From a virus (taxonomy: Duplodnaviria > Caudoviricetes): a stretch of 64,000 nucleotides of DNA. The stretch is from the IMG/VR virus record IMGVR_UViG_3300036851_000157, positions 386 through 64,385 of that record, one strand, 5' to 3'. The notes below the pieces were generated by a model that was not told the origin of the DNA, ran no database searches, and worked only from the letters and a program-made list of their open reading frames with translations. Within the stretch, counting starts at the first letter, position 1. Each line of letters opens with the position of its first letter. Made by a program: the position numbers and the translations under genes. This document shows positions 12,604-55,682 of the stretch, piece by piece.

Positions 12604-14081
12604 GCCGCCAGTCTTCCGTACAGAACCCACTCGTCGGTGGCGATCTTCATCAGACCGTAAACACCGTACTGAGCAGCGATCTTGAGACCTGGCACGTTGC
12701 GAATCGTCACACCAGAGCCTTGTGCAAAGGTGACCTGACCCGCACCGAGCTGAGCACCCTCGATCTGAGTGCCTACAGGGAACGCAACCGAAGAGTTCGG
12801 CGGAACAGTAACGGTGACTGCGCTTGCGTTGTTGAACGACACCCACTTGTTCTGATCTGTCAGAACAAAGATGTAGGTTGTACCTGTTTGCGCATTGATC
12901 GTCACAGCCTTAGTCTGCAACTTGAGCGGAGTAACTGCTCTTGCGTTATCGGTACCTGTATCTGTTTCGCTTTGCGTAGCTAACTCAATGATGCCTTGCG
13001 CCGACTCGGAAGTGGCAGACAACAGCGCCATCAATGCTGCTTGGTTTGCCAGCTCCAAGAATGCGCGCCCATACGAGGTTGTAGAGAGCGCCGCAAGAGC
13101 AGTCAAATCAGAATCTAAAGGCTGCGCGAAAGCAGCTAAACGAGTCTGGAGTTTGAGCGGAGTGACAATTCTTGCATCGTCGGTGCCTGTATCAGTTTCT
13201 GCTTGAGTTGCGAGCTCGGCAATACCTTGAACGGTCTCTGAAGCCGAGGCAACGCCGCTAGGATCGATCCATTCGGTATCGTAGTCAGTTCCGCTGTTCT
13301 TGGCTAGAATCTGACCAATCGTGCCTCCGATCGGAACTCCTTGCCCGGCGGTACCCGCAGGACCTACAAGTGACGTACCCGATCCCCAAGCGCCCGCAGT
13401 CTTTGGGCCATAGATCTCATCAGCCGCCGTGTCGATGTAGAAATCTCCATCCACACCAAGTGCTCCTGAAGGGGCGCCAGTTCCATTCCGGACTGTCTTA
13501 CCATCAGCTCCTGCTGAGCCCGTTGCGCCCGCATCTCCCGTTGCACCTGCTGCACCCGTCTCTCCCGTCGGACCCACAAGCGAAGTGCCTGAACCCCAGG
13601 CACCGGCAGCTTTAGGACCAAAGATCGCATCAGCGTCCGTGTCGATATAGAAATCACCGTCTACTCCCAACCCCGATGAAGGGACTCCTGTGCCGTTTCG
13701 TACGGTCTTACCATCAGCTCCAGCAGTTCCATCAGCGCCCGCCGGTCCAGTAGCACCAGCAGTGCCGGCGTCTCCAGGATCTCCTTGGGGTCCTTGAGGG
13801 CCAGCTGGTCCGGCAGGTCCCTGCGGACCTGTAGCTCCATCAGAACCAGGAGCACCATCCGTTCCATCCGATCCAGCCGGGCCAGCCGGTCCCTGACTTC
13901 CTGCGGCACCGGTAGCACCGGCAGGTCCCTGGGGACCGGTCGCTCCTGGTTCACCTTGTACTCCCTGAGGACCCGCAGCGCCCTGTGCACCGCGACCTTG
14001 ATCGACGTTCAAATGAATAGGCGAAGGGATAGTGAGCTCTAGCGTGGACCCATCTCGAACCTCGAGAATCATTTGACTCAT
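12600..14081 (-). CDS. Collagen-like fibre protein
   Basis: Long G-X-Y runs; two GVDGDFYIDT repeats; two ELATQ.ETDTGTD.AR.VTPLKLQT repeats. Confidence 0.85.
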   Translation of the reverse strand: MSQMILEVRDGSTLELTIPSPIHLNVDQGRGAQGAAGPQGVQGEPGATGPQGPAGATGAAGSQGPAGPAGSDGTDGAPGSDGATGPQGPAGPAGPQGPQGDPGDAGTAGATGPAGADGTAGADGKTVRNGTGVPSSGLGVDGDFYIDTDADAIFGPKAAGAWGSGTSLVGPTGETGAAGATGDAGATGSAGADGKTVRNGTGAPSGALGVDGDFYIDTAADEIYGPKTAGAWGSGTSLVGPAGTAGQGVPIGGTIGQILAKNSGTDYDTEWIDPSGVASASETVQGIAELATQAETDTGTDDARIVTPLKLQTRLAAFAQPLDSDLTALAALSTTSYGRAFLELANQAALMALLSATSESAQGIIELATQSETDTGTDNARAVTPLKLQTKAVTINAQTGTTYIFVLTDQNKWVSFNNASAVTVTVPPNSSVAFPVGTQIEGAQLGAGQVTFAQGSGVTIRNVPGLKIAAQYGVYGLMKIATDEWVLYGRLAA

Positions 14082-18062: not shown

Positions 18063-18799
18063 TTAGCTTTCCGAAGAGTAATGAACGTCCAGATGTGGTC
18101 CATGCCCTTGTTGATCACGGAAGGATCGATGACTCTGAAGCCTCGAAGCTTGACGCCAAGGCCCTTGAACATCTGCCAGTCGATCTTGTGGTTCCTCCAT
18201 TGCATATCGAGTCGCTCTGCCAGCTTGTTAGGATGAACCCATCGAGTGCCGACTCCGAGCTGAAGATCTCCACCGTTCAGCACGATGTCCGGATTGAATT
18301 CCTTCTCCAACTTTCGTTGGATCTCTTGAACTCTCTCCACAGAACGGCGATACTGAGGAAGAACCAGGTTGATGAACCTGAGAGGACCGGGCTGTGGGTG
18401 CCAAGCAACAAGGAGGACCGTTTGATCCTCAACTTTACTGACAATGGCCTTACCCCAACGCTCAGGCATGTACTTGAGAATCTTCGGAATCTCTCGCCCA
18501 ACGAAGAACTCTTCCTTGTGAAGGATCTCGTGACCCTTCTTGATGGAGATGATCACATCATGATTCACAACTCGACCACGAGCATCCTTGCGCTTCGGTG
18601 GACCGATGAAGTGTTCATACTCCTTGGCTGTTTCAACCAAGTCTCCGATGTTGAAGTTCATCTCAGACCAGTCAATCAAATCCGGCTCCAAGTTCGTAGC
18701 CAGTTTGATGACGTTTGGTCCGATGGACCTGGAGTGTCCAGGTGCATGCAGCCACTTTAAGTCCACTTTTCCCTCCTCGGACAAAACTTCAGATACCAT
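18059..18799 (-). CDS. Possible endonuclease/exonuclease/phosphatase-fold protein
   Basis: GGDLQ, IDW and MDH motifs in EEP-like order; start uncertain. Confidence 0.4.
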   Translation of the reverse strand: MVSEVLSEEGKVDLKWLHAPGHSRSIGPNVIKLATNLEPDLIDWSEMNFNIGDLVETAKEYEHFIGPPKRKDARGRVVNHDVIISIKKGHEILHKEEFFVGREIPKILKYMPERWGKAIVSKVEDQTVLLVAWHPQPGPLRFINLVLPQYRRSVERVQEIQRKLEKEFNPDIVLNGGDLQLGVGTRWVHPNKLAERLDMQWRNHKIDWQMFKGLGVKLRGFRVIDPSVINKGMDHIWTFITLRKAK

Positions 18800-18874
18800 G
18801 TATAGAACGACCCAATACGTAATACCCACTAGGGATCCCCATCCCAATACGTAACTAGGTCGGACCGTTTTCCC

Positions 18875-18950
18875 GTGTTCCCCCCGGGGAATTTTTTAGG
18901 AGGGGCGCGATGAAGAGGGGGGGTACATCTCGCGTACCCCTCCCCCCCAT
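18875..18950. other. Candidate cos / genome-end region
   Basis: Intergenic G and C runs, GGGGTAC/GTACCCC hairpin, CGCGCCCCT on minus strand at 18901-18909; lies between RNAP operon and packaging genes. Confidence 0.55.
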
Positions 18951-18958
18951 AGCATGTG

Positions 18959-19192
18959 TCAAGGTCTCGTCACGATGATGTGTTTCCCTGTGACGTTCTC
19001 CTCAACAATTTCTCTCATTGCTTGCTCCCGATCAGCCTCTTGGTCTGCATCACTCAATGAATCAGAAGTAATGATGATCCTATCGAGGAGACCGGGTGTG
19101 TTGTATCCATGAACCATGTCCCAGATGAACCACTCATCCCAGTTATCGAACGGATCGAAAGGATTATCTGATGTACTAAGCATTATAGCCAT
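18959..19192 (-). CDS. Conserved acidic hypothetical protein
   Basis: MLST.DNPFDPF..WDEW...D...GYNT; coupled to the RNAP-like gene. Confidence 0.8.
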   Translation of the reverse strand: MAIMLSTSDNPFDPFDNWDEWFIWDMVHGYNTPGLLDRIIITSDSLSDADQEADREQAMREIVEENVTGKHIIVTRP

Positions 19193-22008
19193 CAGCTTTC
19201 TCCTCTCAAGCTGTTCTTCAGTGTAGTGAGTGATACACCCAGAGCTTGTGCTACCTCAGCCTGTGTGTGACCAGAGGCCAGCATGGCCTTGGCTCTAGGA
19301 AGTTGTGAACCACCCATCAAAGTAGTCTGACGTGGGGTGGCTAGCTTCTTCACAGTCTCAAGGTCTGCATTGTCCAAGATAGACTTCAGCTTGCTAGGAC
19401 TGATGGCTCTTGCTTGGATGGCGGTCCATTCTTGAGGGGTGATTTGGATCTGGTCCTTGCCAGCACCAACTCTAGACCTCGCCTGCTGTAGTGCTTGGAA
19501 CTTCACCCTCTTGATCTGGGCAGCATCCATGTCTGGAAGATCTACCCTCTTCTGAGCCAATGTAGTATTGGCATAGATCTGAGCTTGACGTTCCAAAGGT
19601 CTGTTCTGGATGGCCTGATTAAGCTTGGCCGTCAGAGACTTGACCTCTTGGTCATAAGCACGAGTAGCAGAAGGCACAGCTTTGTCAAGCTTGGTGTTGA
19701 CAAGTTCTTTCCTTGCCAGGTTTGCCAATGCCTTCATCCTGTTGCTGTGTTCAGCATACGCCGCTTCGATGCTAGTGCCAGGTTTTTCCTTAGATCCACC
19801 TGATGTCAAAGCAAACGCGTCCTCTGCAATCTCTAGCTTCTTGCGTGGCGCAGTTGGGAAGCGAGTCTTCCCCGTGACAGGATCAACCCATTCCTCACCT
19901 TTTGGTACCAAGATCCTTCGACCTGTGATTGGATCAATGCCGCGCTGCTTGACAGCACGAGCTTGCCTATCTACAGAGCCGGCCCTAGAGATCAAGGTTG
20001 ACGCACCGCCAGCCGCTTGTCCTCCAGGTCGAGGTTGATACTTCTGTTGAAGGGCCTTGATGCCGTTGTCAATCTCTGATGCCTTGTAATCCAAGGAATG
20101 CTTCTCAGCATCAATAACAACCATAGAGTGTTTGACAGCACGAGCAAGTTCATCGTTGCTGGCTCCACGAATCGTCATGTCAGTGATGAGATTTGACACC
20201 TTACCCATGTGTTGCTGCTTGCCTGAGGGAGAAGTCTTTCCTGGCGTGCCATCGGGCTTTACCCCATAATCGATCTTGCTGGCTTTAGCATCCCAACGTC
20301 CACCATCAATAGTCTTCATTCCATCGTAAGGAGGATACTCCCTTTGTGGATCAAAGTGCTTCAATTCTTCCAATGAAGGAGAGCTCTTAATGGTTGTTCC
20401 TGGTCGCTGCGGAATGACAATGACAGAATCTCCATCAAAGTCAGCTCCCGACAACTTTGCTGCTACCTTGGGGTTGATGCCGATTGCGTCAGGCGGATGC
20501 TCACCAAACGCCTCTCTTGCAAGCTTGTGCCTGTTGTTGACAGTCAGCTCTGGAATCTCGAAGGTTCCGCCATGGGGGTAGCGGATAAGAACTACGCGAT
20601 CGCCGTTTTTGTACGTCGGTGCGTAGACCTCCGTCTCTTTCATCGTTGGAATGGGGAGGATGACACGAGACGCCTGGCCCGGAAGAGCTGCTGCTTTTAG
20701 ATGGACAGCCGACGAATCCGCGCCATCCGCAAAGGACTCGAGAAGCTTCGCTCGAACTGCCGGATTGGTGAGTTGCATGATCTCGTCAAGCTTTTCGCGT
20801 TCTGCATCGTAAGTTGCCTGCAGTTGGCGCCTTGCGAGAGTCGGGCTCTGCTTCGACAGAAATTGAGACGACAAGTTATCGGACCAAGTATCCCAATTAC
20901 CTTCTTCGTTGATCTTGTTCATCACAGAAGTGACTTTACCGGTTTTCTCGTCAATGACCTGTCCACCATTCGGCCTGATCTGTGCACCAAAGGGGTTATC
21001 ACTGTCGATCGTTCCGTCGTCCTTCTTCTTGAGCTCCTTCATGACATCGATCTTGCTGCCACCAGGGTTCTTGTTGGTGTTAAACTGAAGATCTACACCC
21101 TTCGGCATATCTGGCTTGTAGACGGCCATCCCTTTGAGATAGTGCGTGCCGTCGACCATGATTCGAACCTGGGCATAATGTGCTGATCCAAGTGAGACAT
21201 CTTTGACACCAGGCCTGACATAAATGACACCGTCTGCCTCCTTGCCTCCTTGATCTGCGTAAATGATGCCAACGCGTCGAGAAGAGATTGATAGAGGCGG
21301 TTTAATGCCAAGGATAGTCTTTCCGTTATCCTTCGAGAATTTTCCAAGAGCGTCGAGCTGTTGGATTTCTCCTTTTCGAGCATTGAGCTCCTTGTATGTC
21401 GTGCCGGGCGGTGTGAGAACACGGATCGTGGTCTTGTTACCTGGTGCAGTGCCGAGTTGGTCGACCTGTACTTTGTGGACCATGTATCCCTTTTCTTTTA
21501 GCACCGCTACTGCCGCCTTGAGGCGAGACTCAGCGATACCAAGGTGTTGTTCCACGCCAGTTCCGATGTCGATGAAACGCTTAGATGCAACACCCTCTTC
21601 CAACATCCGAGAAACGTTGTGAAGAGCATCGATCTTCGCGCGAGCGTCATCAGCAAGCAGCGAACGAATCGTTGATTCCTTCGACTTGGTACCGAACATC
21701 TTCTCCGCAATAGCCGTGTGTGACCATCCTTGATCGCGAAGCTTCTGAGCTTGATGGATCTGCTGCTGCTTTTGTTGAGCCTTGGCAATTGTCCTAGCGG
21801 CACGGTATTCGGTAGTGCTGATACCGACCATCTTACAAGCCTCGGTAATGGACATATTGCCCTCGGACTTAATCTTGTCGAAGTACGCCAAGAACTCGCG
21901 ATTTCTCACATTCTCGGTGCTACCTGAACCCCAAGGATAGCGGCCCGACCTACGAAGGATGCCGTAGTGAGCCAGATAGTCATCTTTTTCAATGAGCTCG
22001 CTCACCAT
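19192..22008 (-). CDS. Putative single-chain two-barrel (DPBB) RNA polymerase with HTH segments
   Basis: LSGADFDGDSV at ~20428-20448, upstream LIRYPH and YLKGMA; HTH-like segments at both ends. Confidence 0.75.
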   Translation of the reverse strand: MVSELIEKDDYLAHYGILRRSGRYPWGSGSTENVRNREFLAYFDKIKSEGNMSITEACKMVGISTTEYRAARTIAKAQQKQQQIHQAQKLRDQGWSHTAIAEKMFGTKSKESTIRSLLADDARAKIDALHNVSRMLEEGVASKRFIDIGTGVEQHLGIAESRLKAAVAVLKEKGYMVHKVQVDQLGTAPGNKTTIRVLTPPGTTYKELNARKGEIQQLDALGKFSKDNGKTILGIKPPLSISSRRVGIIYADQGGKEADGVIYVRPGVKDVSLGSAHYAQVRIMVDGTHYLKGMAVYKPDMPKGVDLQFNTNKNPGGSKIDVMKELKKKDDGTIDSDNPFGAQIRPNGGQVIDEKTGKVTSVMNKINEEGNWDTWSDNLSSQFLSKQSPTLARRQLQATYDAEREKLDEIMQLTNPAVRAKLLESFADGADSSAVHLKAAALPGQASRVILPIPTMKETEVYAPTYKNGDRVVLIRYPHGGTFEIPELTVNNRHKLAREAFGEHPPDAIGINPKVAAKLSGADFDGDSVIVIPQRPGTTIKSSPSLEELKHFDPQREYPPYDGMKTIDGGRWDAKASKIDYGVKPDGTPGKTSPSGKQQHMGKVSNLITDMTIRGASNDELARAVKHSMVVIDAEKHSLDYKASEIDNGIKALQQKYQPRPGGQAAGGASTLISRAGSVDRQARAVKQRGIDPITGRRILVPKGEEWVDPVTGKTRFPTAPRKKLEIAEDAFALTSGGSKEKPGTSIEAAYAEHSNRMKALANLARKELVNTKLDKAVPSATRAYDQEVKSLTAKLNQAIQNRPLERQAQIYANTTLAQKRVDLPDMDAAQIKRVKFQALQQARSRVGAGKDQIQITPQEWTAIQARAISPSKLKSILDNADLETVKKLATPRQTTLMGGSQLPRAKAMLASGHTQAEVAQALGVSLTTLKNSLRGES

Positions 22009-22565
22009 TGCTCCTCTTCTTCACGAAGGTCATCTACTCGCTTACTGAGGTATCGGTAACGCTCCATGTGGTGCATAATGTCGTCGCCATCAGGAATATG
22101 GGTACGAAATTCATCATTCTGGTAAATCCGGCATTCCATCTTGATCTTGAATGGATTGATCAGATATTCCAGACAGAACAGCGCGCAATAAAGCTCGAGC
22201 TGCTTCCATGATGTCAACGCCTGTCCATTCTTCAAGTCGTGAACTCGAAGAAAATTCTTCCTGAAGCCGATCGCGTCGGGGGTGCCAAAAGCATTGGCGT
22301 TGTACATCAACATCTGCTCCGGTCGCATCATGTAACCGATTGCGTGGTTGACATACAGCGCTAACGTCGTCTGCCCCTTCAGCGGGATCTTAAGTCGAAT
22401 AGCCTCAGCTGCGAACTGGTGAAGTTCAGTTCCACGCTTGGCTTCCTGTTGCATGCGATAGACACGATCGAACTTATCGTCGTCGTATCCCAACCAGTGG
22501 TGTTTGCTCGCGCTCAAATGTGTCGCGTGCAAGCCGGTAAAGGCGGTATGTCTGTGCCAGATCAT
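22002..22565 (-). CDS. PD-(D/E)xK / Cas4-like exonuclease
   Basis: GTELH, PEQ, GTPDAI, HDLKNG, QLELY. Confidence 0.75.
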   Translation of the reverse strand: MIWHRHTAFTGLHATHLSASKHHWLGYDDDKFDRVYRMQQEAKRGTELHQFAAEAIRLKIPLKGQTTLALYVNHAIGYMMRPEQMLMYNANAFGTPDAIGFRKNFLRVHDLKNGQALTSWKQLELYCALFCLEYLINPFKIKMECRIYQNDEFRTHIPDGDDIMHHMERYRYLSKRVDDLREEEEQW

Positions 22566-22833
22566 GCAGAACCTCTTCTTCGTTCTCTGGGTAGATAAAT
22601 GCCCCGAAGGAGTGGATGGCAGCCCAGTGGACATACCATTCTTGGTTAGGTTCTTGATCCGCGTCGCGTGAAATTTTCACTTCCAGCCATCCCCAGAAGC
22701 CTGGGAGAAAAACTGTGAGATCAGGAATGCCTTGACGATAGCCTGAGTTGTTCTTAAGGATGTCACACTCTCCCTTGGGAAAGCGACCTTTGATCCTAGG
22801 TATCAACTCTCGCTGATAGTCTCTTTCTAGCAT
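22474..22833 (-). CDS. VRR-NUC family nuclease / resolvase
   Basis: LERDYQ, GIPDL, LEVK, PNQ.WY. Confidence 0.8.
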   Translation of the reverse strand: MLERDYQRELIPRIKGRFPKGECDILKNNSGYRQGIPDLTVFLPGFWGWLEVKISRDADQEPNQEWYVHWAAIHSFGAFIYPENEEEVLHDLAQTYRLYRLARDTFEREQTPLVGIRRR

Positions 22834-22881
22834 TCTCACCTCCAAAAACAGACAAAAAGAATAGGGATATGGTCCCCTCTT

Positions 22882-22908
22882 CTATTATAGTCTGCGTTTG
22901 CGACGCGA
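22882..22908 (-). promoter_or_regulatory. Conserved phage promoter-like motif upstream of nuclease-RNAP operon
   Basis: TCGC-N6-AAC-N8-TAATAG with exact spacing. Confidence 0.7.
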
Positions 22909-22916
22909 GCCAATAC

Positions 22917-23423
22917 TTACTGTGTCACACGAGCAAATCGTTGCCACGTGGGGAAACAGGGGCTGCCGTTAACTACTGATTTCATCACATCTTCCTCTAA
23001 AAGACCGTATTTACAAGCAGCGACGCGAGAATCTTCATACTCCTCGCTGGTTTCCACGTCATAGATCTTCGCTCGGAACAGCGGAGTCTTGGACTCCTCG
23101 AACTGGTGAAAGAACTTGACAGCGAACCACCTGGGACGCCACACTAGATTCTTCGCGTGATTATCGTTACGATCTCCATTCAGATTGATTGGTGTGTTGA
23201 ACTGTGCTGACTTCCCTGTAACAAACATGGTTGCGACGAGGCGAGGAAGAGACAGTGTCATCTGCCGACCCTCGTCACGCTTCATCAAACCTACTCTGAC
23301 TACCCCATACTGGTTCGGGGAGAGTTTGAGTAGGTTGTCCGTACGCTCATTCTTCACTGCGCCTTCGTCACTCACCATGTAACCAGGGAAGCCCATCGTG
23401 TCTAGGCTTTCCCAATTCTCCAT
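22917..23423 (-). CDS. NUMOD4/HNH-like protein
   Basis: GY.VSDEG.VKN, RLVA..F, NGDR.DN...NL.W. Confidence 0.7.
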   Translation of the reverse strand: MENWESLDTMGFPGYMVSDEGAVKNERTDNLLKLSPNQYGVVRVGLMKRDEGRQMTLSLPRLVATMFVTGKSAQFNTPINLNGDRNDNHAKNLVWRPRWFAVKFFHQFEESKTPLFRAKIYDVETSEEYEDSRVAACKYGLLEEDVMKSVVNGSPCFPTWQRFARVTQ

Positions 23424-32867: not shown

Positions 32868-32906
32868 GGTTCTCCTTTGGTTGGGATCTTCATTATAGGC
32901 TACGTA

Positions 32907-33209
32907 TTAACTGCGAAGAGGACGAATCATCTCGCCTTTAGCTGTATGTTCGAATCCGAATTTTGCGTAGAACGCCTCGAGTTGTTGCTGATCTAAGCTC
33001 GCGTCGTGACCATATGGACGAGCTCGCAGAACCAGCCGCATCTGTAGCTCATCGCCAAACTCACATACAAGACCCATCAACCCTGTGCCATGTCCCCGCC
33101 CACGATTGTTAGCGACAACATCAATCACCCGAATCGTTTTCTTCTCGTTAGAGATGAGCAAGAAGCAATGCGCTGATTTATAGCTGACGTATTTACTGTA
33201 CTCCGGCAT
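32907..33209 (-). CDS. GNAT acetyltransferase
   Basis: RGRGHGTGLM motif A; FYAKFGF. Confidence 0.8.
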   Translation of the reverse strand: MPEYSKYVSYKSAHCFLLISNEKKTIRVIDVVANNRGRGHGTGLMGLVCEFGDELQMRLVLRARPYGHDASLDQQQLEAFYAKFGFEHTAKGEMIRPLRS

Positions 33210-33256
33210 GAGAACCTTTCATACAGAAAGCGAGAGGCCTTGCGGCCTCTGCTTAG

Positions 33257-33460
33257 TTATGCCTCTCTGAATACGAGTCCGGGTAGAATAACGCGCTTTC
33301 GGCGTTCTAGTGTGACAATCCAGAATCCGTCGGGCAGGTCCTCCGGAATGCCCACGTGTGTGATGTTCCACTTGATGTAGAGGTTTCGCAACGTGAGCCT
33401 TCCGTAGACCTGCGAGATGTCGGGTCCGTCTTTGTCGACGTAATAGCCTCGTTTTTGCAT
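33257..33460 (-). CDS. Cassette hypothetical protein
   Basis: Promoter 33483; AAGGAG RBS; hairpin 33232-33250. Confidence 0.7.
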   Translation of the reverse strand: MQKRGYYVDKDGPDISQVYGRLTLRNLYIKWNITHVGIPEDLPDGFWIVTLERRKRVILPGLVFREA

Positions 33461-33536
33461 TTTGGTCTCCTTCGTTGGGGTTCTATTAAAGCCCATGTAA
33501 ACAAAGCGAGAGGGCTTGTTAGGGCCTCTGCTAGTG

Positions 33537-33701
33537 CTACCGTGTGTGGTCTTGATGCTTCAAGCAGAAAATGCTCGGGTAGTTGACGCCGAGGTACTCG
33601 TTGCACACCTCGCCAGCTGCGTCTTTTGCTTCGCAGTATTGAGTGGTTACGTAGTACCCGTCGCCAACATACTCGAAATGGGTGTCTGATGTTTCAAGCA
33701 T
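33537..33701 (-). CDS. Cassette hypothetical protein (Cys-rich)
   Basis: Promoter 33721; AAGGAGG RBS; hairpin ~33509-33529. Confidence 0.7.
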   Translation of the reverse strand: MLETSDTHFEYVGDGYYVTTQYCEAKDAAGEVCNEYLGVNYPSIFCLKHQDHTR

Positions 33702-33782
33702 AATGCCTCCTTGGTAGGTTCTATTAAACACCATGTATTGGCTGCGAAAAACGCAGAGCCCGTGTAGGGCCCTGCGAGTGGT

Positions 33783-34028
33783 TCAAGACGTGTGGTGATC
33801 GATGGCGATTACCTCGCCACCCATCTTCTCTTTCACGAGCGCAACTGCCTCGTCCATCGAGGCGATGGTCTCCTTGTCGAAGTCGCGGGAGGACTGCATG
33901 GCCTTTGCCTTCGCCTTGCGGCGCTTGGCGCGGGTCCTGCCGTCCTGCCACTCTTCAAACGAAGCGTGAGCCATCACTCCGATCACGAAGAACAGAATGG
34001 CTGTGATGAAGAAAGCATAGGTGGTCAT
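33783..34028 (-). CDS. Cassette membrane protein
   Basis: Promoter 34057; RBS; N-terminal TM; hairpin 33752-33775. Confidence 0.75.
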   Translation of the reverse strand: MTTYAFFITAILFFVIGVMAHASFEEWQDGRTRAKRRKAKAKAMQSSRDFDKETIASMDEAVALVKEKMGGEVIAIDHHTS

Positions 34029-34228
34029 GGTTCTCCTTCTTACAGTTGGGGTCTTTTCATTAGAGGCCATGAATTTGTTGCGAGCAGTTTAACGATCATG
34101 CTCAGGACGGCGTGAGTACAAGGCGCAACGGCCAAATTAAAACTCGCATATGGTTAGAAATGCCAAGAGGCTAGGAGTCTCTTGCGAGTCTTCAACTAGC
34201 CTCTTGGCGTGTTGCCCCCCGGCAACAT

Positions 34229-34333
34229 TCAGCGGTTCTTGATGTACAGCACGATGCGGGAAGCGTTGTTGCACTGAGCGACGTACTGGTTGTAGTCGAC
34301 TCGGGCAGCAAGCATTCGCTTGGTGAGGTTCAT
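34229..34333 (-). CDS. 34-aa cassette peptide
   Basis: Promoter 34364; AAGGAG RBS; MNLTKRMLAARVDYNQY; hairpin 34161-34208. Confidence 0.6.
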   Translation of the reverse strand: MNLTKRMLAARVDYNQYVAQCNNASRIVLYIKNR

Positions 34334-34486
34334 TTCTTCTCCTTGTTGGGTGTCTATGGGGGTCTATTATGGGCGTTGTAATTCTTGCGAGGGGGTAGAG
34401 ATTTGGACGCCAGTCACGGCCCTCTACCCCCTCTATTAAGAGGGATTCTTCACAAAAGGTTTTCTCATCTCAGTGCCTTTTGTGAA

Positions 34487-49985: not shown

Positions 49986-50069
49986 GAAGATCTCCTTTCG
50001 GTCTCATTAAAGACCGGGTATTTCGTGCGAAAAGGATAGAGCCCTATTTCTAGAGCTCTATCGGATGAA

Positions 50070-50282
50070 CTACTTGGTCTTGGCCGTCTTCTTGTCGGAC
50101 TTGACGCGACGGTCGACTTCCTTCTTCCAGGCCTTGGAATTGCGGCTGTTCGCGCGTGCGTTGAGGAGCTTCGCAGCTCCGGAGAGCGCGGTCGCTCCTG
50201 CGAGCAAGCATAGAGCAGTGTTTTCCTCCCAGGCCTTCTTGATGTCAGCCTTGATCTTGTCAGCATTCAAGTTGATGTTCAT
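50070..50282 (-). CDS. Cassette membrane peptide
   Basis: Promoter 50306; hairpin 50036-50061. Confidence 0.75.
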   Translation of the reverse strand: MNINLNADKIKADIKKAWEENTALCLLAGATALSGAAKLLNARANSRNSKAWKKEVDRRVKSDKKTAKTK

Positions 50283-50397
50283 GGCGGTACCTTTCTAAAG
50301 TGGGTTCATTAGAGGCTGTGTTTCATTTGCGAGACGGGAAGTACGGCGAGACCCCAATCCAGCCAGTGAACTCCCCGCCTCGCAAATATCCGACCGA

Positions 50398-51165
50398 TTA
50401 CTCGGTCGTCCCCCCGGGCTCTTCGGCACCCTCGGCCATCTTACGACGCTGACGGATGTTTAGAAGCATTGTCGGGATGTTCTTTCCCTGCCGCGCTTCT
50501 GCGTAAAGCGTTTCGAACTCATTCCGATTCATCTCTAGAAGTTGGTCGGGGGTGTAGTCCGACCAGGTCTTCTTGACTGGATTATCCATGTAGAGAGGAT
50601 CGCCATGATTCTGCTCAGGGCTGTCGATCGACGGAATTCCATCGTCGCCTGGATAGACCGGAGCCTCGTTGGCGACGTTGGTCAGAGGGTTCTCCAGATC
50701 CGGCACAGGACTGAGATCGGCACGCTGGCTCTTCTCGTAGTCCTTCTGAACCACTTCAGGCCAGATCTTGGTCATGAAATAATTCGCACGATCGGTGTTC
50801 TCGAAGAGGTACAGCACGAAGGCATTGAAGGCGCCTGTCGAAACGAATCGACGCCAAATATCCCCGCTTCCGTGCGGATCGTCCTTGTCGAACTGCTCAC
50901 CGTCAGGGCCTTGCGAACGAACTCCGTAGGAGTGCTTGATGAGAACCTTGACGATATCGAGCATCTCACGCTTCTCAGGAGCGGTAAGTTCGCGCACAAG
51001 AGTCTTATCGTCGCCGATAACCTCGTCCTGGAAACGTTCCAAGCGCTCCTTGAGAACCTCCAGCTCCATGTCGTGCGAGACCTCGAACTCGTCAAGGTGG
51101 AAATGAAGCGTTCGAGAAACCGGATTACCGCTTGGACTCTTGAACGAGATGAACTGCTTGATCAT
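50398..51165 (-). CDS. Conserved hypothetical protein
   Basis: MIK..I.F...G....LHFHL; SYG.RS. Confidence 0.7.
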   Translation of the reverse strand: MIKQFISFKSPSGNPVSRTLHFHLDEFEVSHDMELEVLKERLERFQDEVIGDDKTLVRELTAPEKREMLDIVKVLIKHSYGVRSQGPDGEQFDKDDPHGSGDIWRRFVSTGAFNAFVLYLFENTDRANYFMTKIWPEVVQKDYEKSQRADLSPVPDLENPLTNVANEAPVYPGDDGIPSIDSPEQNHGDPLYMDNPVKKTWSDYTPDQLLEMNRNEFETLYAEARQGKNIPTMLLNIRQRRKMAEGAEEPGGTTE

Positions 51166-51175
51166 TGTGTTCCTT

Positions 51176-51358
51176 TCAGAACAGCGCTTCTGCGCCGTGC
51201 GTGAGATTCTTGGTTTGGATGATTTCGCCGCCGACTTCAGAAATCATGCCGGAGTGCCACCGTTCATACACGGCCTCCGCATCCTCAAGAAATGTCGTCT
51301 GTGCAATCTCCGTGAATGAATGGTCGGGCAGCTGCCGAAAGACCCGGTAGCGAAACAT
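51176..51358 (-). CDS. Hypothetical protein
   Basis: AAGGAG RBS. Confidence 0.65.
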   Translation of the reverse strand: MFRYRVFRQLPDHSFTEIAQTTFLEDAEAVYERWHSGMISEVGGEIIQTKNLTHGAEALF

Positions 51359-51429
51359 TCTTCTCCTTTAGAGAAATAGAGAGGCCTAGTAGTGTGGGGA
51401 CTACCAGGCCTCTCGGCTTGGGGAACTGT

Positions 51430-51636
51430 TCAGTTATCGGTGGAGTCGTCGGACTCGACGTGGACGTCCGCGGACACCGAGCCCTTCGCGTTGAGCCGGT
51501 TCTTCAGCCACAGGACACCGGCAGCAACTCCGCCGATGATGGCGGCGCGCTTGGCGTTCTTGCGAGTGAAGACTCGGTCCTTCAGCGAGGTGGTCTCGGG
51601 GGTCTCGGGGACGGTCTGGTCGTTGGTCTCGGTCAT
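51430..51636 (-). CDS. Cassette membrane peptide
   Basis: Promoter 51668; RBS; one TM; hairpin 51379-51414. Confidence 0.75.
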   Translation of the reverse strand: MTETNDQTVPETPETTSLKDRVFTRKNAKRAAIIGGVAAGVLWLKNRLNAKGSVSADVHVESDDSTDN

Positions 51637-51760
51637 GATTCCTTCTTTCTTAGGAACAGGTTTCCGTTCATTATGAGCGATGTAATTCCTGCGATTTAAT
51701 CGCAGTTCCATTCACATGGGGGCTCAAATATCCAGTCGAGCGGATGCCTTGAGCCCCTTA

Positions 51761-53532: not shown

Positions 53533-53587
53533 GAGAAGCTGTTCGTACCCGTATAGGGTGATCAGGGTAGACTACTACCGTCTTCTC
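53533..53587 (-). ncRNA. Small three-way-junction RNA
   Basis: Follows promoter 53586; GAGAAG/CTTCTC ends pair; two internal hairpins; U-rich tail. Confidence 0.55.
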
Positions 53588-53626
53588 ATTAGAGGGGTTG
53601 TATTTCTTGCGACGAAGAAATAAAGT

Positions 53627-53750
53627 GAGAAGAGGTACAACGTCCAACTAAAACGTTGTCGTTAAGCAGCTGTTTGGTCCGTGCTGCCACGCCAGCCAGG
53701 ATTCGAACCTGGACATTAGTGTCTTGGCAACCCTTTCGGGTCCTCTTCTC
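53627..53750 (-). ncRNA. Structured RNA with tRNA T-arm
   Basis: Follows promoter 53749; GAGAAGAGG/CCTCTTCTC ends pair; CCAGG-TTCGAAT-CCTGG; ACCC-GAAA-GGGT. Confidence 0.65.
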
Positions 53751-53817
53751 ATTACAGCACCTGTTTTTCCTGCGACAGACAAATAGAGAGCCCTTGTTAC
53801 GGGGCTCTCTCGGAAGA

Positions 53818-54048
53818 CTACATGCCTCTGGTGACTTGCTCCCAGAACTTGGCGGTATCGAGCTTCTTGTCCAGGCCGGCGGTGAGTTGGCCCATCTTTT
53901 CTATCCACTCGAGCTGTCGTTCGTGTTGGAGTTTAGCTTCTTCAGCTTTGTCCCAACCCTTGATGATGTCGAGTGTCTTGAGGATGACGAGTCCAGTCCA
54001 CGCAGCGGTGGCTAAACCAGCTAGCAGTGCGATCTGCTTTTTGTTCAT
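53818..54048 (-). CDS. Cassette membrane peptide
   Basis: Promoter, RBS, N-terminal TM, terminator. Confidence 0.75.
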   Translation of the reverse strand: MNKKQIALLAGLATAAWTGLVILKTLDIIKGWDKAEEAKLQHERQLEWIEKMGQLTAGLDKKLDTAKFWEQVTRGM

Positions 54049-54138
54049 GGTTGTGTCTCCTTAATGTGGGGTCTTCATTATAGGAAAGGAATAACCAGCG
54101 ACAAAGAGAAAGCCGATGTACTGGCTTCCTCCCTGAAT

Positions 54139-54282
54139 CTACTTGAAGAGAGCGTGCTTGGTCTTCTTGGTCGTCTTCGTGAACGCTCTCGCGAGCTTGC
54201 TGATGACGAGGTACGGGATGTACAACAGCATCAGCGCGAACGCGATCTGGAACATGAGAAAGACGAACTGGAAAGCATCCAT
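54139..54282 (-). CDS. Cassette membrane peptide (47 aa)
   Basis: AAGGAG RBS; MDAFQFVFLMFQIAFALMLLY. Confidence 0.7.
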   Translation of the reverse strand: MDAFQFVFLMFQIAFALMLLYIPYLVISKLARAFTKTTKKTKHALFK

Positions 54283-54372
54283 GGGGTCTCCTTCGGTGTG
54301 GGTATTCATTATAGGGGTGGAATATCCCGCGATAAGAGAAGTAGAGCCCGGGTAAGGGGCTCTACTGGGTGA

Positions 54373-54567
54373 TCAGTCCTCGGGGTCGGGAACGATCTCA
54401 AGGTCAGGCTTCTTGGTCTTCTTTTCCTTCCAGTCGACGTACGATCCGACTGCGAACACGGCAACCAGCAATCCTGCTTCGATACCGATGATGGTACGAT
54501 TGAGGTTGCGGTTGACCTTGCGCATGTGGATGACGTCAGGGCAGGTGTAGACGTGTCGCTTGAGCAT
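54373..54567 (-). CDS. Cassette membrane peptide
   Basis: AAAGGAG RBS; one TM. Confidence 0.75.
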   Translation of the reverse strand: MLKRHVYTCPDVIHMRKVNRNLNRTIIGIEAGLLVAVFAVGSYVDWKEKKTKKPDLEIVPDPED

Positions 54568-54648
54568 GGGGTCTCCTTTGTTGGGGTCTGTCGTTATAGG
54601 CGATGTAAATATAGCGAAAAGCAGACCCAATGAAGGGTCTGCTAGGCC

Positions 54649-54921
54649 TTACTTGGCGAGGCCTTCCATCCACTTGAGGTTGTTGAGTCTGGCTTCCCAG
54701 TGGGATGCGTTCTCTTCTGCCAGCCGGAGAGCGGTCCGTTCGTACAGGGCGAGATGGGTCTGCATCTGCTCGATGAGGGAGATGACGAGGGGTTCGTCGT
54801 CATACTTCGATCGGAGCCGAGCAGCCTGTTCGCACAGTGCTACGGAATGGTCGTGGGCCAACATCAGGAACTGCATCTCCATTGAGATGATCTCAGTGTT
54901 CTCTTCTTCAAGATTGGACAT
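54649..54921 (-). CDS. Cassette helical protein
   Basis: AAAGGAG RBS before MSNLEE. Confidence 0.75.
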   Translation of the reverse strand: MSNLEEENTEIISMEMQFLMLAHDHSVALCEQAARLRSKYDDEPLVISLIEQMQTHLALYERTALRLAEENASHWEARLNNLKWMEGLAK

Positions 54922-55005
54922 GGTGGTTCTCCTTTGGTTGGGGTCATTATAGGCTATGAATATCCCGCGAAAAGCCATAGTCCATGTAGGACTACAGCTC
55001 TTGAG

Positions 55006-55227
55006 CTACACCTTTTTCAAGGCGAGAATGAACGGGTGCCAGCCTTTGATGTCGAATCTCTCAGCCAGCTCCTTCTCGGTCACGATCTCATTGTGGATGT
55101 CGCTGCCCAACACCGCGTCGAAAACAAGATATGTCGTCTTCTTTTCGATGTCGGGTGTAACGCCTCCGTTCAGGAAAGTGATGAGGGGAAGCTGGGACTT
55201 TTGGATCTTGATGGCGTACATTTCCAT
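55006..55227 (-). CDS. Cassette hypothetical protein
   Basis: AAAGGAG RBS before MEMYAI. Confidence 0.75.
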   Translation of the reverse strand: MEMYAIKIQKSQLPLITFLNGGVTPDIEKKTTYLVFDAVLGSDIHNEIVTEKELAERFDIKGWHPFILALKKV

Positions 55228-55342
55228 GTTGTTCTCCTTTGTTGGGTGGTGCTCGTTAGAGGCTATGTACGTATTGCGACACAAAAATATAGAGCCCCTG
55301 TAGATTTCGCTACAGGGGTCTATATCGTCCGTTTGTGGTGAC

Positions 55343-55627
55343 TCAGCGGAGTTTGCCGACTTGGCTCATTGCTTTCGATCCGATCACGTGGCTGTGTTCG
55401 TACGCGACGATGATGATGATGCCAAGGAGGTTGCCTCCTACAATGAGCAGGGTGTCGGGATTGAACCCTCTCTTGGAGTGTTTCTCCTTGAGCTTGTACA
55501 ATCTCTCCAGCCTGTTCAGGCAGGTTGCATATTCCTCGGAATCACCACTCATCGATCGCATGTCGTCTTCGAGCATCTGGATCGTCTGGTCAAGACTCTG
55601 AGCTTCGTCCGAGCGTTTGCTCAGCAC
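55343..55627 (-). CDS. Cassette membrane protein
   Basis: PDTLL..GGNLLGI..I..YE....I.SKA. Confidence 0.75.
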   Translation of the reverse strand: MLSKRSDEAQSLDQTIQMLEDDMRSMSGDSEEYATCLNRLERLYKLKEKHSKRGFNPDTLLIVGGNLLGIIIIVAYEHSHVIGSKAMSQVGKLR

Positions 55628-55682
55628 TGGGGTCTCCTTTCATTGGGATTCATTATAGACCATGAATCCCTCGCGACCCCGG

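What the first reader, a model, noticed from the sequence alone, without database searches (positions are those of the whole stretch)
19192..22008. Cryptic single-chain two-barrel RNA polymerase
Seen: the 938-aa ORF contains LSGADFDGD (~20428-20448), preceded ~45 aa earlier by LIRYP and further upstream by YLKGMA. Known: DFDGD binds the catalytic Mg in beta-prime, and R-x-P plus a K-G motif mark double-psi-barrel polymerases such as SPbeta YonO. Inference: the phage has its own minimal RNAP with fused HTH segments that might replace a sigma factor. Such a protein could easily be annotated only as an HTH protein.
Basis: partly seen in the sequence, partly recalled or inferred. Interest (0 to 1): 0.85.

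Follow-up and report, generated by a model that had tools for sequence, protein, structure and literature searches.

The report
Phage single-chain two-barrel RNA polymerase
This soil-phage gene encodes a one-protein relative of the catalytic core of cellular RNA polymerases with DNA-binding modules fused to both ends; the family was already predicted in print but never tested at the bench, and it travels with a promoter-like motif that it may read.

Summary
ORF 19192-22008 (-) encodes 938 aa with YLKGMA, LIRYP and LSGADFDGD. K292/G293, R476/P478 and S520-G-x-D-F-D-G-D527 are invariant in 102 of 102 aligned homologs (42-80% identity).

An AlphaFold model (pLDDT 89; core alone 92) matches only two-barrel RNA polymerases at E<=0.001: QDE-1, Thermus-phage gp62/gp64 and plant RDR2.

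The protein is a full-length member of PHROG 4291 ('RNA-dependent RNA polymerase', E=0). This is the Lactococcus 1706 orf75 / actinophage 'HTH DNA-binding protein' family, already described by computation in 2010 and 2021. It is therefore a new member of a known kind. I found no bench test.

Added here:
- 17 copies, all on the coding strand, of a ~30-nt motif (TCGC-N6-TwCA-N5-CTATAAT). One copy heads the polymerase operon.
- A matrix built from these copies finds the motif in 4 of 4 polymerase-bearing phages (Streptomyces, Arthrobacter, Gordonia, Lactococcus) and in 0 of 3 control phages.
- An N-terminal DUF7211-like tag, plus an old 'structural protein' label on 1706 orf75, hint at virion packaging.

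Promoter reading and packaging are inferences. This scan has reached the same reading on at least 25 other genomes.

The parts
19192..22008 (-). Gene for the 938-aa single-chain two-barrel RNA polymerase (P0001)
   Evidence: ORF; phrog_4291 E=0 over residues 7-936; AlphaFold pLDDT 89.3, pTM 0.83; Foldseek QDE-1 2j7n_A E 2.2e-7 and P74 gp62 8f5m_A E 2.6e-6.
21904..22008 (-). N-terminal peptide (residues 1-35): a short acidic leader, then L-x-H-Y-G-x-x-R-x-S-G-R-Y-P-W-G-S-G. Strongly conserved but modelled as disordered. DUF7211-like tag.
   Evidence: G16, S21, G22 and R23 in 102 of 102 rows and H14 in 97 of 102. pLDDT about 40 for residues 1-30. Weak Pfam DUF7211 hit, 15.7 bits, E 0.01, below the cut-off of 27.
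21580..21861 (-). N-terminal helical region with two HTH-like units (residues ~50-143)
   Evidence: Helices 54-61/65-92 and 97-105/108-118. phrog_3855 and phrog_125 HTH hits at residues 70-124. The A1 profile hits resolvase, NarL and ECF-sigma HTHs weakly here.
21019..21291 (-). First (beta-like) double-psi barrel, residues ~240-330, with invariant D259-G260, Q280-x-R282, K292-G293 (YLKGMA), P302, G304 and K324
   Evidence: Strands 246-249, 261-264, 278-285, 289-297 and 307-310; invariance. Equivalence to QDE-1 D709/R738/K743 is inferred from residue order only.
20404..20691 (-). Second (beta-prime-like) double-psi barrel, residues ~440-535, with R476-Y-P478 (nt 20575-20583) and D523-F-D-G-D527 (nt 20428-20442)
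   Evidence: Invariant in 102 of 102 rows. Local Foldseek matches of 113-147 columns at rmsd 2.3-3.5 A to the largest subunit of plant Pol IV and to a phage AR9 RNAP chain. Pfam RdRP PF05183 aligns residues 514-638, E 0.016.
20029..20229 (-). Conserved helical segment after the catalytic loop (residues ~594-660; invariant M601, G602, N606, L607, D610, D633, K636)
19195..19446 (-). C-terminal pair of HTH units (residues ~855-938); the last one is sigma-70 region-4 / resolvase-HTH-like
   Evidence: Pfam HTH_23 26.5 bits (cut-off 24.6) and HTH_7 23.8 bits at 905-932; Sigma70_r4_2 17.3 bits, below its cut-off of 25.7. Sigma70_r4_2 matches 48 of 50 homologs at E<=0.01, best 1.1e-12.
22879..22908 (-). 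Promoter-like motif copy heading the operon (123-aa ORF, exonuclease, polymerase, small gene). It can also be read as a sigma-70-type promoter, TTGGCT-18-TATAAT.
   Evidence: Regex hit; matrix score 20.9 bits, the lowest of the 17 copies; sigma-70 scan 10 of 12.
22002..22634 (-). Exonuclease gene; its end overlaps the polymerase start by 7 nt, so the two are probably co-transcribed
   Evidence: phrog_3953 exonuclease, E 6.4e-61; coordinates. The same gene order occurs in PherryCruz, Mudcat, Duffington and 1706.
18959..19192 (-). Small conserved gene (77 aa) that always follows the polymerase gene
   Evidence: phrog_4303, E 5.9e-31. A small gene follows the polymerase gene.
53583..55676 (-). 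Eight copies of the promoter-like motif (5' ends at 55676, 55279, 54970, 54617, 54332, 54101, 53775, 53612) before small-gene cassettes
   Evidence: 27-38 bits.
50001..51694 (-). Three copies of the motif (51694, 50332, 50030)
32887..34390 (-). Five copies of the motif (34390, 34083, 33747, 33509, 32916)
18848..18958 (.). Probable physical genome end (cos region), which makes the polymerase the second-to-last gene of the linear genome
   Evidence: The G/C-run-rich gap resembles, by eye, the joined right and left termini of Streptomyces phage PherryCruz. In ReqiPoco6 the homolog ends 539 nt before an annotated 3' cos overhang. This is an inference.

Best explanation
The gene encodes a single-chain RNA polymerase of the two-double-psi-barrel kind, the same active-site architecture as cellular beta/beta-prime, fungal QDE-1 and Thermus-phage gp64. 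It belongs to the Lactococcus 1706 orf75 / PHROG 4291 family.

Shown here:
- The two barrels carry the conserved catalytic set. Barrel 1 has D259, R282 and K292. Barrel 2 has R476-x-P478 and D523-x-D525-x-D527.
- HTH modules flank the core on both sides.
- The phage carries no sigma-70 region-2 protein.

Inferred:
- The enzyme works on the phage's double-stranded DNA, not on RNA.
- It finds its start sites itself through the fused HTH units. The last unit is sigma region-4-like.
- The ~30-nt motif TCGC-N6-TwCA-N5-CTATAAT(G/A)(A/G) is its promoter. It occurs 17 times on the coding strand, before small early-type gene cassettes and before the polymerase's own operon.
- The operon copy also fits a host sigma-70 promoter, which could supply the first enzyme. 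Alternatively the enzyme arrives in the virion, marked by its N-terminal DUF7211-like tag.

My odds: two-barrel nucleotide polymerase about 0.9; DNA-dependent transcriptase about 0.75; reads this motif about 0.55; virion-carried about 0.4.
For: Family: PHROG 4291 E=0 over the full length. There are 250 phage records with a homolog, 249 of them covering at least 80% of the query, and 2044 50%-identity representatives at E<=0.001.

Catalytic motifs: invariant in 102 of 102 homologs.

Fold:
- Whole model pLDDT 89.3; core model 92.1.
- All Foldseek PDB matches at E<=0.001 are two-barrel RNAPs: 7 of 7 for the whole model, and all 17 rows shown of 23 for the core, with TM on the query 0.36-0.45.
- In the viral library 4 matches reach E<=0.001: one named RNA dependent RNA polymerase, the P23-45 protein A7XX94, and 2 unnamed.

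HTH modules: HTH_23 and Sigma70_r4_2 each in 48 of 50 homologs, Sigma70_r4 in 38 of 50.

Other transcription proteins: no Sigma70_r2 match in the 64,385-base record, which CheckV rates 100% complete; the control search rang in 10 of 14 genomes.

Promoter motif:
- 17 copies on the - strand and 0 on the + strand at >=14 bits.
- It is the only non-coding repeat family among the 20 largest direct-repeat families.
- The window-derived matrix finds forward/reverse hits of 7/0 in Streptomyces phage PherryCruz, 7/0 in Arthrobacter phage Mudcat, 8/0 in Gordonia phage Duffington and 5/0 in Lactococcus phage 1706. Shuffles give a mean of at most 0.2. It finds 0/0 in phiC31, sk1 and L5, which lack the polymerase.
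- A copy sits before the nuclease-polymerase operon in the window, PherryCruz, Mudcat and Duffington.
- Sixteen of the 17 copies (all but 51694) have their best -35 fit at a 16- or 18-nt spacer, and 15 of the 17 match TTGACA at only 1-3 of 6 positions.

Packaging hints: the depositors of phage 1706 labelled orf75 'structural protein', and ReqiPoco6 gp106 is labelled so by similarity. The tag is shared with P0271 (DUF7211 28.4 bits, cut-off 27) and with 1706 orf7, which is also labelled structural.
Against: No activity has been measured for any member that I could find.

Sequence searches alone do not reach polymerases. Pfam RdRP scores 14.3 bits against a cut-off of 23.8 in this protein. phmmer and a profile search against PDB sequences find only HTH proteins. 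TM-scores to solved polymerases are modest (0.25-0.45).

The assignment of D259/R282/K292 to the barrel-1 catalytic positions rests on residue order, not on a superposition that I could inspect.

The motif contains a perfect or near-perfect TATAAT. Many actinobacterial sigma-A promoters need little more than that, so the host enzyme may read it. The association test covers only 4 + 3 genomes that I chose. The matrix hits in 1706 are weaker (14-23 bits).

If the polymerase reads the promoter of its own operon, a bootstrap is needed.

The 'structural protein' labels are database annotations. The papers behind them were not available to me. The polymerase's DUF7211 hit is below the Pfam cut-off.
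Confidence: 0.8

Rival explanations
1. The protein is a two-barrel RNA polymerase, but the 17-copy motif is read by host sigma-A RNA polymerase as an early promoter class that includes the polymerase operon. The phage enzyme then takes over middle or late transcription, for example by long read-through across the joined cos ends into the structural genes, or from signals not yet recognised.
For: The -10 box matches TATAAT at 5-6 of 6 positions in 16 of 17 copies. The operon copy reads TTGGCT-18-TATAAT, 10 of 12. The motif lies before small cassette genes typical of early genes. This model avoids the bootstrap problem. I saw no promoter copy before the structural genes.
Against: The -35 match is only 1-3 of 6 in 15 of 17 copies. 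The non-sigma-like blocks TCGC and TwCA keep the same spacing in phages of Actinobacteria and of Lactococcus, and they are absent from 3 control phages of related hosts, including sk1 with its annotated sigma-70 early promoters. No second repeated non-coding motif that could serve the phage enzyme appears among the 20 largest repeat families.
Confidence: 0.3
2. It acts in replication rather than gene expression. [quoted passage not shown]
For: Its neighbours are a helicase, an HNH nuclease and an exonuclease. In 1706 a 448-nt repeat-rich gap precedes the gene.
Against: The phage already has a fused primase-polymerase (phrog_4210, E=0, with primase-family hits). A 17-copy dispersed promoter-like motif before genes fits transcription better.
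Confidence: 0.07
3. It is an RNA-dependent RNA polymerase, as the database name says. It would copy phage or host transcripts into double-stranded RNA, like QDE-1 or RDR2.
For: The best structural matches are QDE-1 and RDR2. Pfam RdRP matches 21 of 50 homologs at E<=0.01. PHROG and RefSeq use this name.
Against: The name comes from homology only. QDE-1 itself also uses DNA templates (title and abstract of PMC9508822 in the listing). The closest phage relative with a solved structure, P23-45 gp64, transcribes DNA from promoters (10.1101/2022.12.01.518664, abstract and section 6). Four HTH DNA-binding units fused to the enzyme, in a dsDNA phage, point to a DNA template.
Confidence: 0.05
4. It is only a DNA-binding regulator whose polymerase-like core is catalytically dead.
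For: Most isolate records call it an HTH DNA-binding protein: 32 of the 40 rows listed.
Against: All candidate catalytic residues are invariant in 102 of 102 homologs at 42-80% identity. That is not expected of a dead site.
Confidence: 0.02

Closest known systems
Lactococcus phage 1706 orf75 family = PHROG 4291 = the 'HTH domain protein / putative RNA polymerase' signature gene of the actinophage supercluster plus Lactococcus and Faecalibacterium phages (PMC2919709, 2010; bioRxiv 10.1101/842583, 2021)
   Same: Full-length HMM match, E=0. 37-52% identity over 98-100% of the length to isolates. Same domain order: tag, HTH, two barrels, HTH. Same position after the exonuclease at the right genome end, followed by a small gene. 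Same promoter-like motif in the genome.
   Different: It comes from an uncultivated soil-metagenome phage of 64.4 kb and 52% G+C. No isolate is closer than 52% identity, and there is no nucleotide-level match in the phage collection.
Neurospora QDE-1 and plant RDR2 (cellular RdRPs, Pfam PF05183)
   Same: They are the best structural matches (E 4e-9 to 1e-4). They share the D-b-D-G-D catalytic loop, R-x-P about 45 residues before it, and one chain carrying both barrels.
   Different: Identity is 10-14% and TM-scores are 0.25-0.45. Pfam RdRP is below its cut-off in this protein. They have no HTH modules or N-terminal tag. They are eukaryotic silencing enzymes, whereas this is a dsDNA phage gene.
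Thermus phage P23-45 gp64 / P74-26 gp62 non-virion RNA polymerase (PDB 8f72, 8f5m)
   Same: Single-chain phage two-barrel RNAP. Best rmsd of the long matches: 6.4-6.6 A over about 445 columns, TM 0.42-0.43 on the query. It reads phage-specific promoters (section 6 of 10.1101/2022.12.01.518664).
   Different: About 14% identity, shorter (about 600 aa), and a different phage lineage and promoter. I made no comparison of its end domains with the HTH modules here.
Bacillus SPbeta YonO
   Same: By the literature, a single-chain DNA-dependent two-barrel RNAP of a prophage (abstract of PMC5467207 in the listing). The 1706 family is one of five 'YonO-like' families in PMC2919709 (section 8).
   Different: Not compared here by sequence or structure. 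No YonO structure appeared among the Foldseek hits. The 2010 paper calls the five families only distantly related.
Virion-carried phage RNA polymerases (crAss-like gp66, P23-45 gp96, N4 vRNAP)
   Same: It may share the strategy of delivering a polymerase with the DNA to read early promoters. The hints are the 'structural protein' labels and the shared N-terminal tag.
   Different: Presence in the virion is not shown for this family in anything I could read. N4 vRNAP is a T7-like enzyme (my own knowledge), which is a different fold.

Membership tests
Two-double-psi-barrel RNA polymerase superfamily | Beta-prime-type barrel with the metal-binding D-x-D-x-D loop | tested here: met
   D523-F-D525-G-D527 is invariant in 102 of 102 homologs. 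The segment superposes on the catalytic barrel of Pol IV and AR9 RNAP chains at rmsd 2.3-3.5 A over 113-147 columns.
Two-double-psi-barrel RNA polymerase superfamily | Invariant R-x-P about 40-45 residues before the aspartate loop (Rpb1 R446/P448; QDE-1 R962/P964, per PMC2919709 section 8) | tested here: met
   R476 and P478 are in 102 of 102 rows, with P478 45 residues before D523. The spacing in QDE-1 is 43.
Two-double-psi-barrel RNA polymerase superfamily | Beta-type barrel with one invariant Asp and two invariant basic residues (Rpb2 D837, K979, K987; QDE-1 D709, R738, K743) | tested here: inconclusive
   D259, R282, K292 and K324 are invariant and lie on predicted strands of a first barrel. 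I could not inspect a residue-by-residue superposition, so which of them are the equivalents is inferred from order.
Two-double-psi-barrel RNA polymerase superfamily | Overall fold resembles solved members | tested here: met
   Foldseek against PDB. Whole model: 7 of 7 matches at E<=0.001 are QDE-1, P74 gp62 or RDR2. Core model: 23 matches at E<=0.001, and all 17 rows shown are QDE-1, gp62/gp64 or RDR2.
Two-double-psi-barrel RNA polymerase superfamily | Template-dependent RNA synthesis | not testable with these tools
   This needs purified protein.
PHROG 4291 / phage 1706 orf75 family | Full-length profile match | tested here: met
   E=0, 1179 bits, residues 7-936 on profile positions 7-907 of 909.
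PHROG 4291 / phage 1706 orf75 family | HTH modules at both the N- and C-terminus (bioRxiv 10.1101/842583) | tested here: met
PHROG 4291 / phage 1706 orf75 family | Position at the right end of the replication block, after the exonuclease | tested here: met
   Window layout compared with PherryCruz, Mudcat, Duffington, 1706 and ReqiPoco6.
Pfam RdRP (PF05183) | Score at or above the gathering cut-off (23.8 bits) | tested here: not met
   14.3 bits, E 0.016. 21 of 50 homologs reach E<=0.01, best 2.9e-5.
Sigma-70 region 4 (PF08281 / PF04545) as the C-terminal HTH | Score at or above the cut-off (25.7 bits for PF08281) | tested here: not met
   17.3 bits in this protein. In the family, 48 of 50 (PF08281) and 38 of 50 (PF04545) reach E<=0.01. 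The resemblance is to a generic three-helix HTH as much as to sigma.
YonO (SPbeta) | Sequence or structure similarity to YonO itself | not tested
   No YonO sequence or structure was in hand. The link rests on PMC2919709.
Virion-packaged RNA polymerases | Protein present in purified virions | not testable with these tools
   There are only annotation labels in EU081845 and GU580942. The source papers are not held.
Pfam DUF7211 (PF23847) tag | Score at or above the cut-off (27 bits) | tested here: not met
   The polymerase N-terminus scores 15.7 bits, E 0.01. The neighbouring-module protein P0271 meets the cut-off with 28.4 bits.

The most novel reading that the evidence does not exclude
This is a sigma-independent RNA polymerase that reaches the cell inside the virion, addressed there by its N-terminal DUF7211-like tag. 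It uses its own fused HTH units, one of them sigma region-4-like, to recognise a ~30-nt promoter that has stayed nearly the same in phages of Actinobacteria and Firmicutes. That would make it a compact, portable, host-independent transcription system on the two-barrel scaffold.
Probability: 0.3. Interest if true: 0.7.

Novelty: new member of a known kind. Interest (0 to 1): 0.35.

Why it matters
Single-chain two-barrel RNA polymerases are rare windows on the minimal form of the enzyme that transcribes all cellular genomes. Few have been studied: YonO, crAss gp66 and the P23-45 enzymes.

This family is very large. It has 250 isolate records and over 2000 50%-identity clusters. It carries built-in DNA-binding modules and comes with a candidate promoter conserved across host phyla.

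Promoter recognition by a two-barrel enzyme without a sigma factor could therefore be tested directly in easy hosts such as Arthrobacter, Gordonia terrae, Streptomyces and Lactococcus lactis. For annotation, hundreds of 'HTH DNA-binding protein' and 'RNA-dependent RNA polymerase' labels are probably both misleading.

The window's own gene adds nothing beyond one more divergent member.

Tried and rejected
- Nucleotide search of the phage collection with the gene: no match.
- phmmer of the protein and hmmsearch of the 102-sequence profile against PDB sequences: only weak YfiB hits, and HTH or helical-repeat proteins; no polymerase. The link to solved polymerases rests on fold comparison.
- First motif guess TAATGARAAG with one mismatch: 5 hits against 6.6 expected. 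I dropped it for the spaced pattern.
- First matrix scan missed the operon copy at 22908, which the regex found.
- Strict pattern TCGC-N17-TAAT/C in phage 1706: 0 forward hits. The motif there has TATAGT and a looser first block, and it was found by reading the intergenic regions and by the matrix.
- Search for a second repeated non-coding motif that could be a late promoter: none among the 20 largest of at least 60 direct-repeat families, and none by eye in 19 intergenic gaps. This was not an exhaustive motif search.
- Sigma-70 and terminator consensus scan of 18700-23100: counts equal to shuffles (4 vs 3.5 and 4 vs 3.8). Only the single site at 22913-22884 is mentioned, as a possibility.
- T7-like RNAP (PF00940) in the record: no match, but the control rang in no genome, so this says nothing.
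- Pfam on the 123-aa ORF 22477-22845, the exonuclease and the helicase: no family at E<=0.001. The VRR-Nuc label used in relatives is therefore not confirmed here.
- Public runs: no RNA holder listed.
- Literature searches for a bench test of the family and for the motif string (0 occurrences of the 12-mer in the 15 papers listed): nothing found. Supplements are closed, and Figure S1 and the tables of 10.1101/842583 and the supplementary alignments of PMC2919709 may hold more.
- Garneau 2008 (PubMed 18191977) and Summer 2011 (PMC3020559) are not held. That the 1706 'structural protein' labels come from virion mass spectrometry is my recollection only.
- I did not use complex prediction, because tag-portal or tag-protease docking seemed unlikely to be decisive. 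I also did not use read laying or the protein-atlas search.

What I saw of each paper:
- PMC2919709: passages and section 8.
- 10.1101/842583: passages.
- 10.1101/2022.12.01.518664: outline with abstract, sections 6 and 9.
- PMC11536984, PMC13064643 and PMC10868187: passages.
- PMC5467207 and PMC9508822: search listing with the start of the abstract only.

Full report
**Observation.** The window holds a 938-codon ORF at 19192-22008 on the minus strand (translation P0001).
- I aligned 102 homologs that are 42-80% identical to the query (A1).
- K292, G293, R476, P478, S520, G521, D523, F524, D525, G526 and D527 are each unchanged in 102 of 102 rows.
- D259, G260, Q280, R282, P302, G304 and K324 are also unchanged.
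- The motifs are therefore real and under strong constraint.

**What the protein is.**
- Pfam alone sees only the C-terminal HTH above its cut-offs (HTH_23 26.5 bits, HTH_7 23.8 bits). It gives a sub-threshold RdRP match around the aspartate loop (PF05183, 14.3 bits, E 0.016, residues 514-638).
- PHROGs gives a full-length match to phrog_4291, 'RNA-dependent RNA polymerase', E=0.
- An AlphaFold2 model built on A1 is confident (mean pLDDT 89.3, pTM 0.83). Only residues 1-30 and 220-232 are poorly defined.
- Foldseek against the PDB gives 7 matches at E<=0.001, all two-barrel RNA polymerases: QDE-1 (2j7n, E 2.2e-7), P74-26 gp62 (8f5m, 2.6e-6), and maize and Arabidopsis RDR2.
- A second model of the core alone (residues 235-745; pLDDT 92.1, pTM 0.86) gives 23 matches at E<=0.001. 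All 17 rows shown are QDE-1, gp62/gp64 or RDR2, with TM on the query of 0.36-0.45.
- Those are followed by short, tight matches (113-147 columns, rmsd 2.3-3.5 A) to the catalytic barrel of multisubunit enzymes.
- The viral structure library gives 4 matches at E<=0.001: a phage protein named RNA dependent RNA polymerase, the P23-45 protein A7XX94, and 2 unnamed entries.
- Sequence-only searches of PDB chains find no polymerase.

**Catalytic residues.** The eight residues that PMC2919709 (section 8) lists as common to all two-barrel polymerases can be placed as follows.
- R476, P478, D523, D525 and D527 are placed with confidence. The P-to-D spacing is 45 here and 43 in QDE-1.
- D259, R282 and K292 (or K324) are placed by order only.

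**Domain layout.**
- A disordered but highly conserved N-terminal peptide.
- Two HTH-like units (about residues 50-143).
- A small alpha/beta domain.
- Barrel 1 (about 240-330).
- A helical hairpin.
- Barrel 2 (about 440-535).
- A conserved helical segment (about 594-660).
- A long helical region.
- Two C-terminal HTH units (about 855-938).
- In a 50-member subset, HTH_23 and Sigma70_r4_2 each match 48, Sigma70_r4 matches 38 and RdRP matches 21 at E<=0.01.

**How common and how known.**
- tblastn finds the protein in 250 phage records, 249 of them over at least 80% of its length and all below 60% identity.
- By host or label these are Arthrobacter 95, Gordonia 55, Streptomyces 54, Lactococcus 13, 'Siphovirus' 12, Curtobacterium 7, Rhodococcus 4, Microbacterium 4, Faecalibacterium 2 and others.
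- Of the 40 best rows, 32 are annotated as HTH/DNA-binding proteins, 7 as RNA-dependent RNA polymerase and 1 as hypothetical.
- The 50%-identity library holds 2044 representatives at E<=0.001.
- In print, PMC2919709 (2010) lists the phage 1706 protein as one of five 'YonO-like' families and argues from the invariant residues that they are real nucleotide polymerases.
- bioRxiv 10.1101/842583 (2021) describes exactly this protein as the signature gene of an actinophage supercluster plus the Lactococcus and Faecalibacterium phages. It reports HHpred to Pfam RdRP, HTH domains at both ends and the DxDGD loop.
- I found no biochemical or genetic test in six searches.
- This scan has also met the family before. 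A look-up by words returned 26 findings in at least 25 genomes, and follow-up reports reached the same reading.

**Genome context.**
- The record is a 64,385-base virus contig rated 100% complete, found in soil metagenome runs. All genes lie on the minus strand.
- PHROG hits give a siphovirus layout: HNH, a tag-bearing 2H-phosphoesterase-like protein, TerL, portal, scaffold-like protein, protease-capsid fusion, major tail, tape measure, minor tail, small-gene cassettes, primase-polymerase, helicase, HNH, a 123-aa ORF, exonuclease, polymerase, and a small phrog_4303 gene.
- The same final block ends the linear genomes of PherryCruz, Mudcat, Duffington, 1706 and ReqiPoco6.
- The 111-nt gap at 18848-18958 resembles the joined termini of PherryCruz. 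The polymerase is therefore probably the second-to-last gene before the right cos end. This is an inference.
- No sigma-70 region-2 protein is encoded.

**A candidate promoter.** Following coordinates in other first-reader notes on this window, I found a ~30-nt motif, TCGC-N6-(T)wCA-N5-C-TATAAT-(G/A)(A/G).
- It has 17 copies on the coding strand and none on the other at >=14 bits.
- The copies fall in three cassette arrays (55.7-53.6, 51.7-50.0 and 34.4-32.9 kb). One copy at 22908-22879 lies just before the nuclease-polymerase operon.
- It is the only non-coding family among the 20 largest direct repeats.
- A matrix made only from the window's 17 copies finds forward/reverse hits of 7/0 in Streptomyces phage PherryCruz (61% G+C), 7/0 in Arthrobacter phage Mudcat (45%), 8/0 in Gordonia phage Duffington (52%) and 5/0 in Lactococcus phage 1706 (33%). 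Shuffled genomes give at most 0.2 on average.
- It finds nothing in phiC31, sk1 and L5, which lack the polymerase.
- In the three actinophages a weaker copy, with a deviant first block, again precedes the nuclease-polymerase operon.
- As a sigma-70 promoter the motif has a good -10 box, but its -35 match is only 1-3 of 6 in 15 of 17 copies. The operon copy is an exception: TTGGCT-18-TATAAT.
- My reading is that the blocks outside the -10 box, kept at fixed spacing across two host phyla and travelling with the polymerase gene, are read by a phage protein. The polymerase, with four HTH units, is the conserved candidate. This is inference from 4 + 3 genomes of my own choosing. Host sigma-A remains a serious rival.

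**Hints of virion packaging.**
- The depositors of phage 1706 labelled orf75 'structural protein' (EU081845), whereas RefSeq renamed it RNA-dependent RNA polymerase. ReqiPoco6 gp106 carries the label by similarity.
- The polymerase N-terminus is a short acidic leader followed by L-x-H-Y-G-x-x-R-x-S-G-R-Y-P-W-G-S-G. It gives a weak hit to the 25-residue Pfam family DUF7211.
- P0271, the protein just upstream of TerL, meets that family's cut-off. Its positional counterpart in 1706, orf7, carries two such tags and is also labelled structural.
- Another first-reader note (e1-6254441) points out that L-x-H also recurs in the spacer of the protease-capsid fusion, which I can see in P0272. I did not test cleavage.
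- I could not read the 2008 and 2011 papers, so packaging is a lead and not a result.

**Verdict.** The protein is very probably a DNA-dependent single-chain two-barrel RNA polymerase with built-in DNA-binding modules. It is a new, divergent member of a family already recognised by computation and already named in PHROGs and RefSeq, so the finding is not novel as such. What remains open, and testable in cultivable relatives, is whether the enzyme is active, whether it reads the conserved motif without a sigma factor, and whether it rides in the virion.

Noticed in passing
window 55676-53583, 51694-50001, 34390-32887, 22908-22879 (- strand): There are 17 coding-strand copies of a ~30-nt promoter-like motif, TCGC-N6-TwCA-N5-CTATAAT. 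The same motif at the same spacing occurs in four polymerase-bearing phages of Streptomyces, Arthrobacter, Gordonia and Lactococcus, and not in three control phages.
   Followed up: yes
L004:39428, L006:45497, L009:42262 and window 22908: The motif copy in front of the nuclease-polymerase operon is the weakest copy in the window (20.9 bits) and low-scoring in the three actinophages (18-22 bits). Its first block deviates there (GCGC, ACGC, TAGC; doubled TCGC in the window). It may be a separately regulated sub-class.
   Followed up: partly
window 22863-22878 (- strand): A 5-bp hairpin followed by a T-rich run lies directly after the operon promoter copy and before the first ORF. It may be an attenuator, but terminator-like counts in the region equal those in shuffles.
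   Followed up: no
window 18848-18958: A G/C-run-rich 111-nt gap resembles the joined right and left termini of Streptomyces phage PherryCruz. It is probably the cos site, so the contig is circularly permuted relative to the virion DNA.
   Followed up: partly
window 10279-11658 (-), P0271: A 459-aa protein upstream of TerL has weak 2H-phosphoesterase/LigT hits, then an L-E-H-H-G ... G-V-K-G-M-K-W-G-V-R-R tag (Pfam DUF7211 above cut-off), then a basic tail. The 462-aa orf7 of phage 1706, in the same position, carries two such tags and is labelled structural.
   Followed up: partly
window 6563-7186 (-), P0270: A low-complexity, coiled-coil-like protein between the portal gene and the protease-capsid gene (a scaffold-like position) opens with D-D-I-L-V-H-A-G, like the polymerase's D-D-Y-L-A-H-Y-G. 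It has no Pfam DUF7211 hit.
   Followed up: partly
window 4341-6536 (-), P0272: The protease-capsid fusion (Peptidase_S78 plus Phage_capsid) has an acidic spacer studded with (L/I)-x-H tripeptides (LEH, IEH twice, LGH and others).
   Followed up: no
proteins P0191 (1789 aa) and P0198 (1809 aa): Two library representatives carry the polymerase homology only from about residue 1050 onward. They are much longer fused forms with an unknown N-terminal half.
   Followed up: no
L002:7635-8082 (phage 1706, record 51634-52081): The 448-nt gap before 1706 orf75 holds several direct repeats of a ~35-nt unit (CTATCACGAAAAAACTTCGGG...). These may be an origin or a regulator-binding array.
   Followed up: no
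window 11674-14081 (-): Collagen-like and Gly-rich tandem repeats lie in two tail-fibre-like ORFs located before the head genes (repeat families D1, D3, D7, D9).
   Followed up: no
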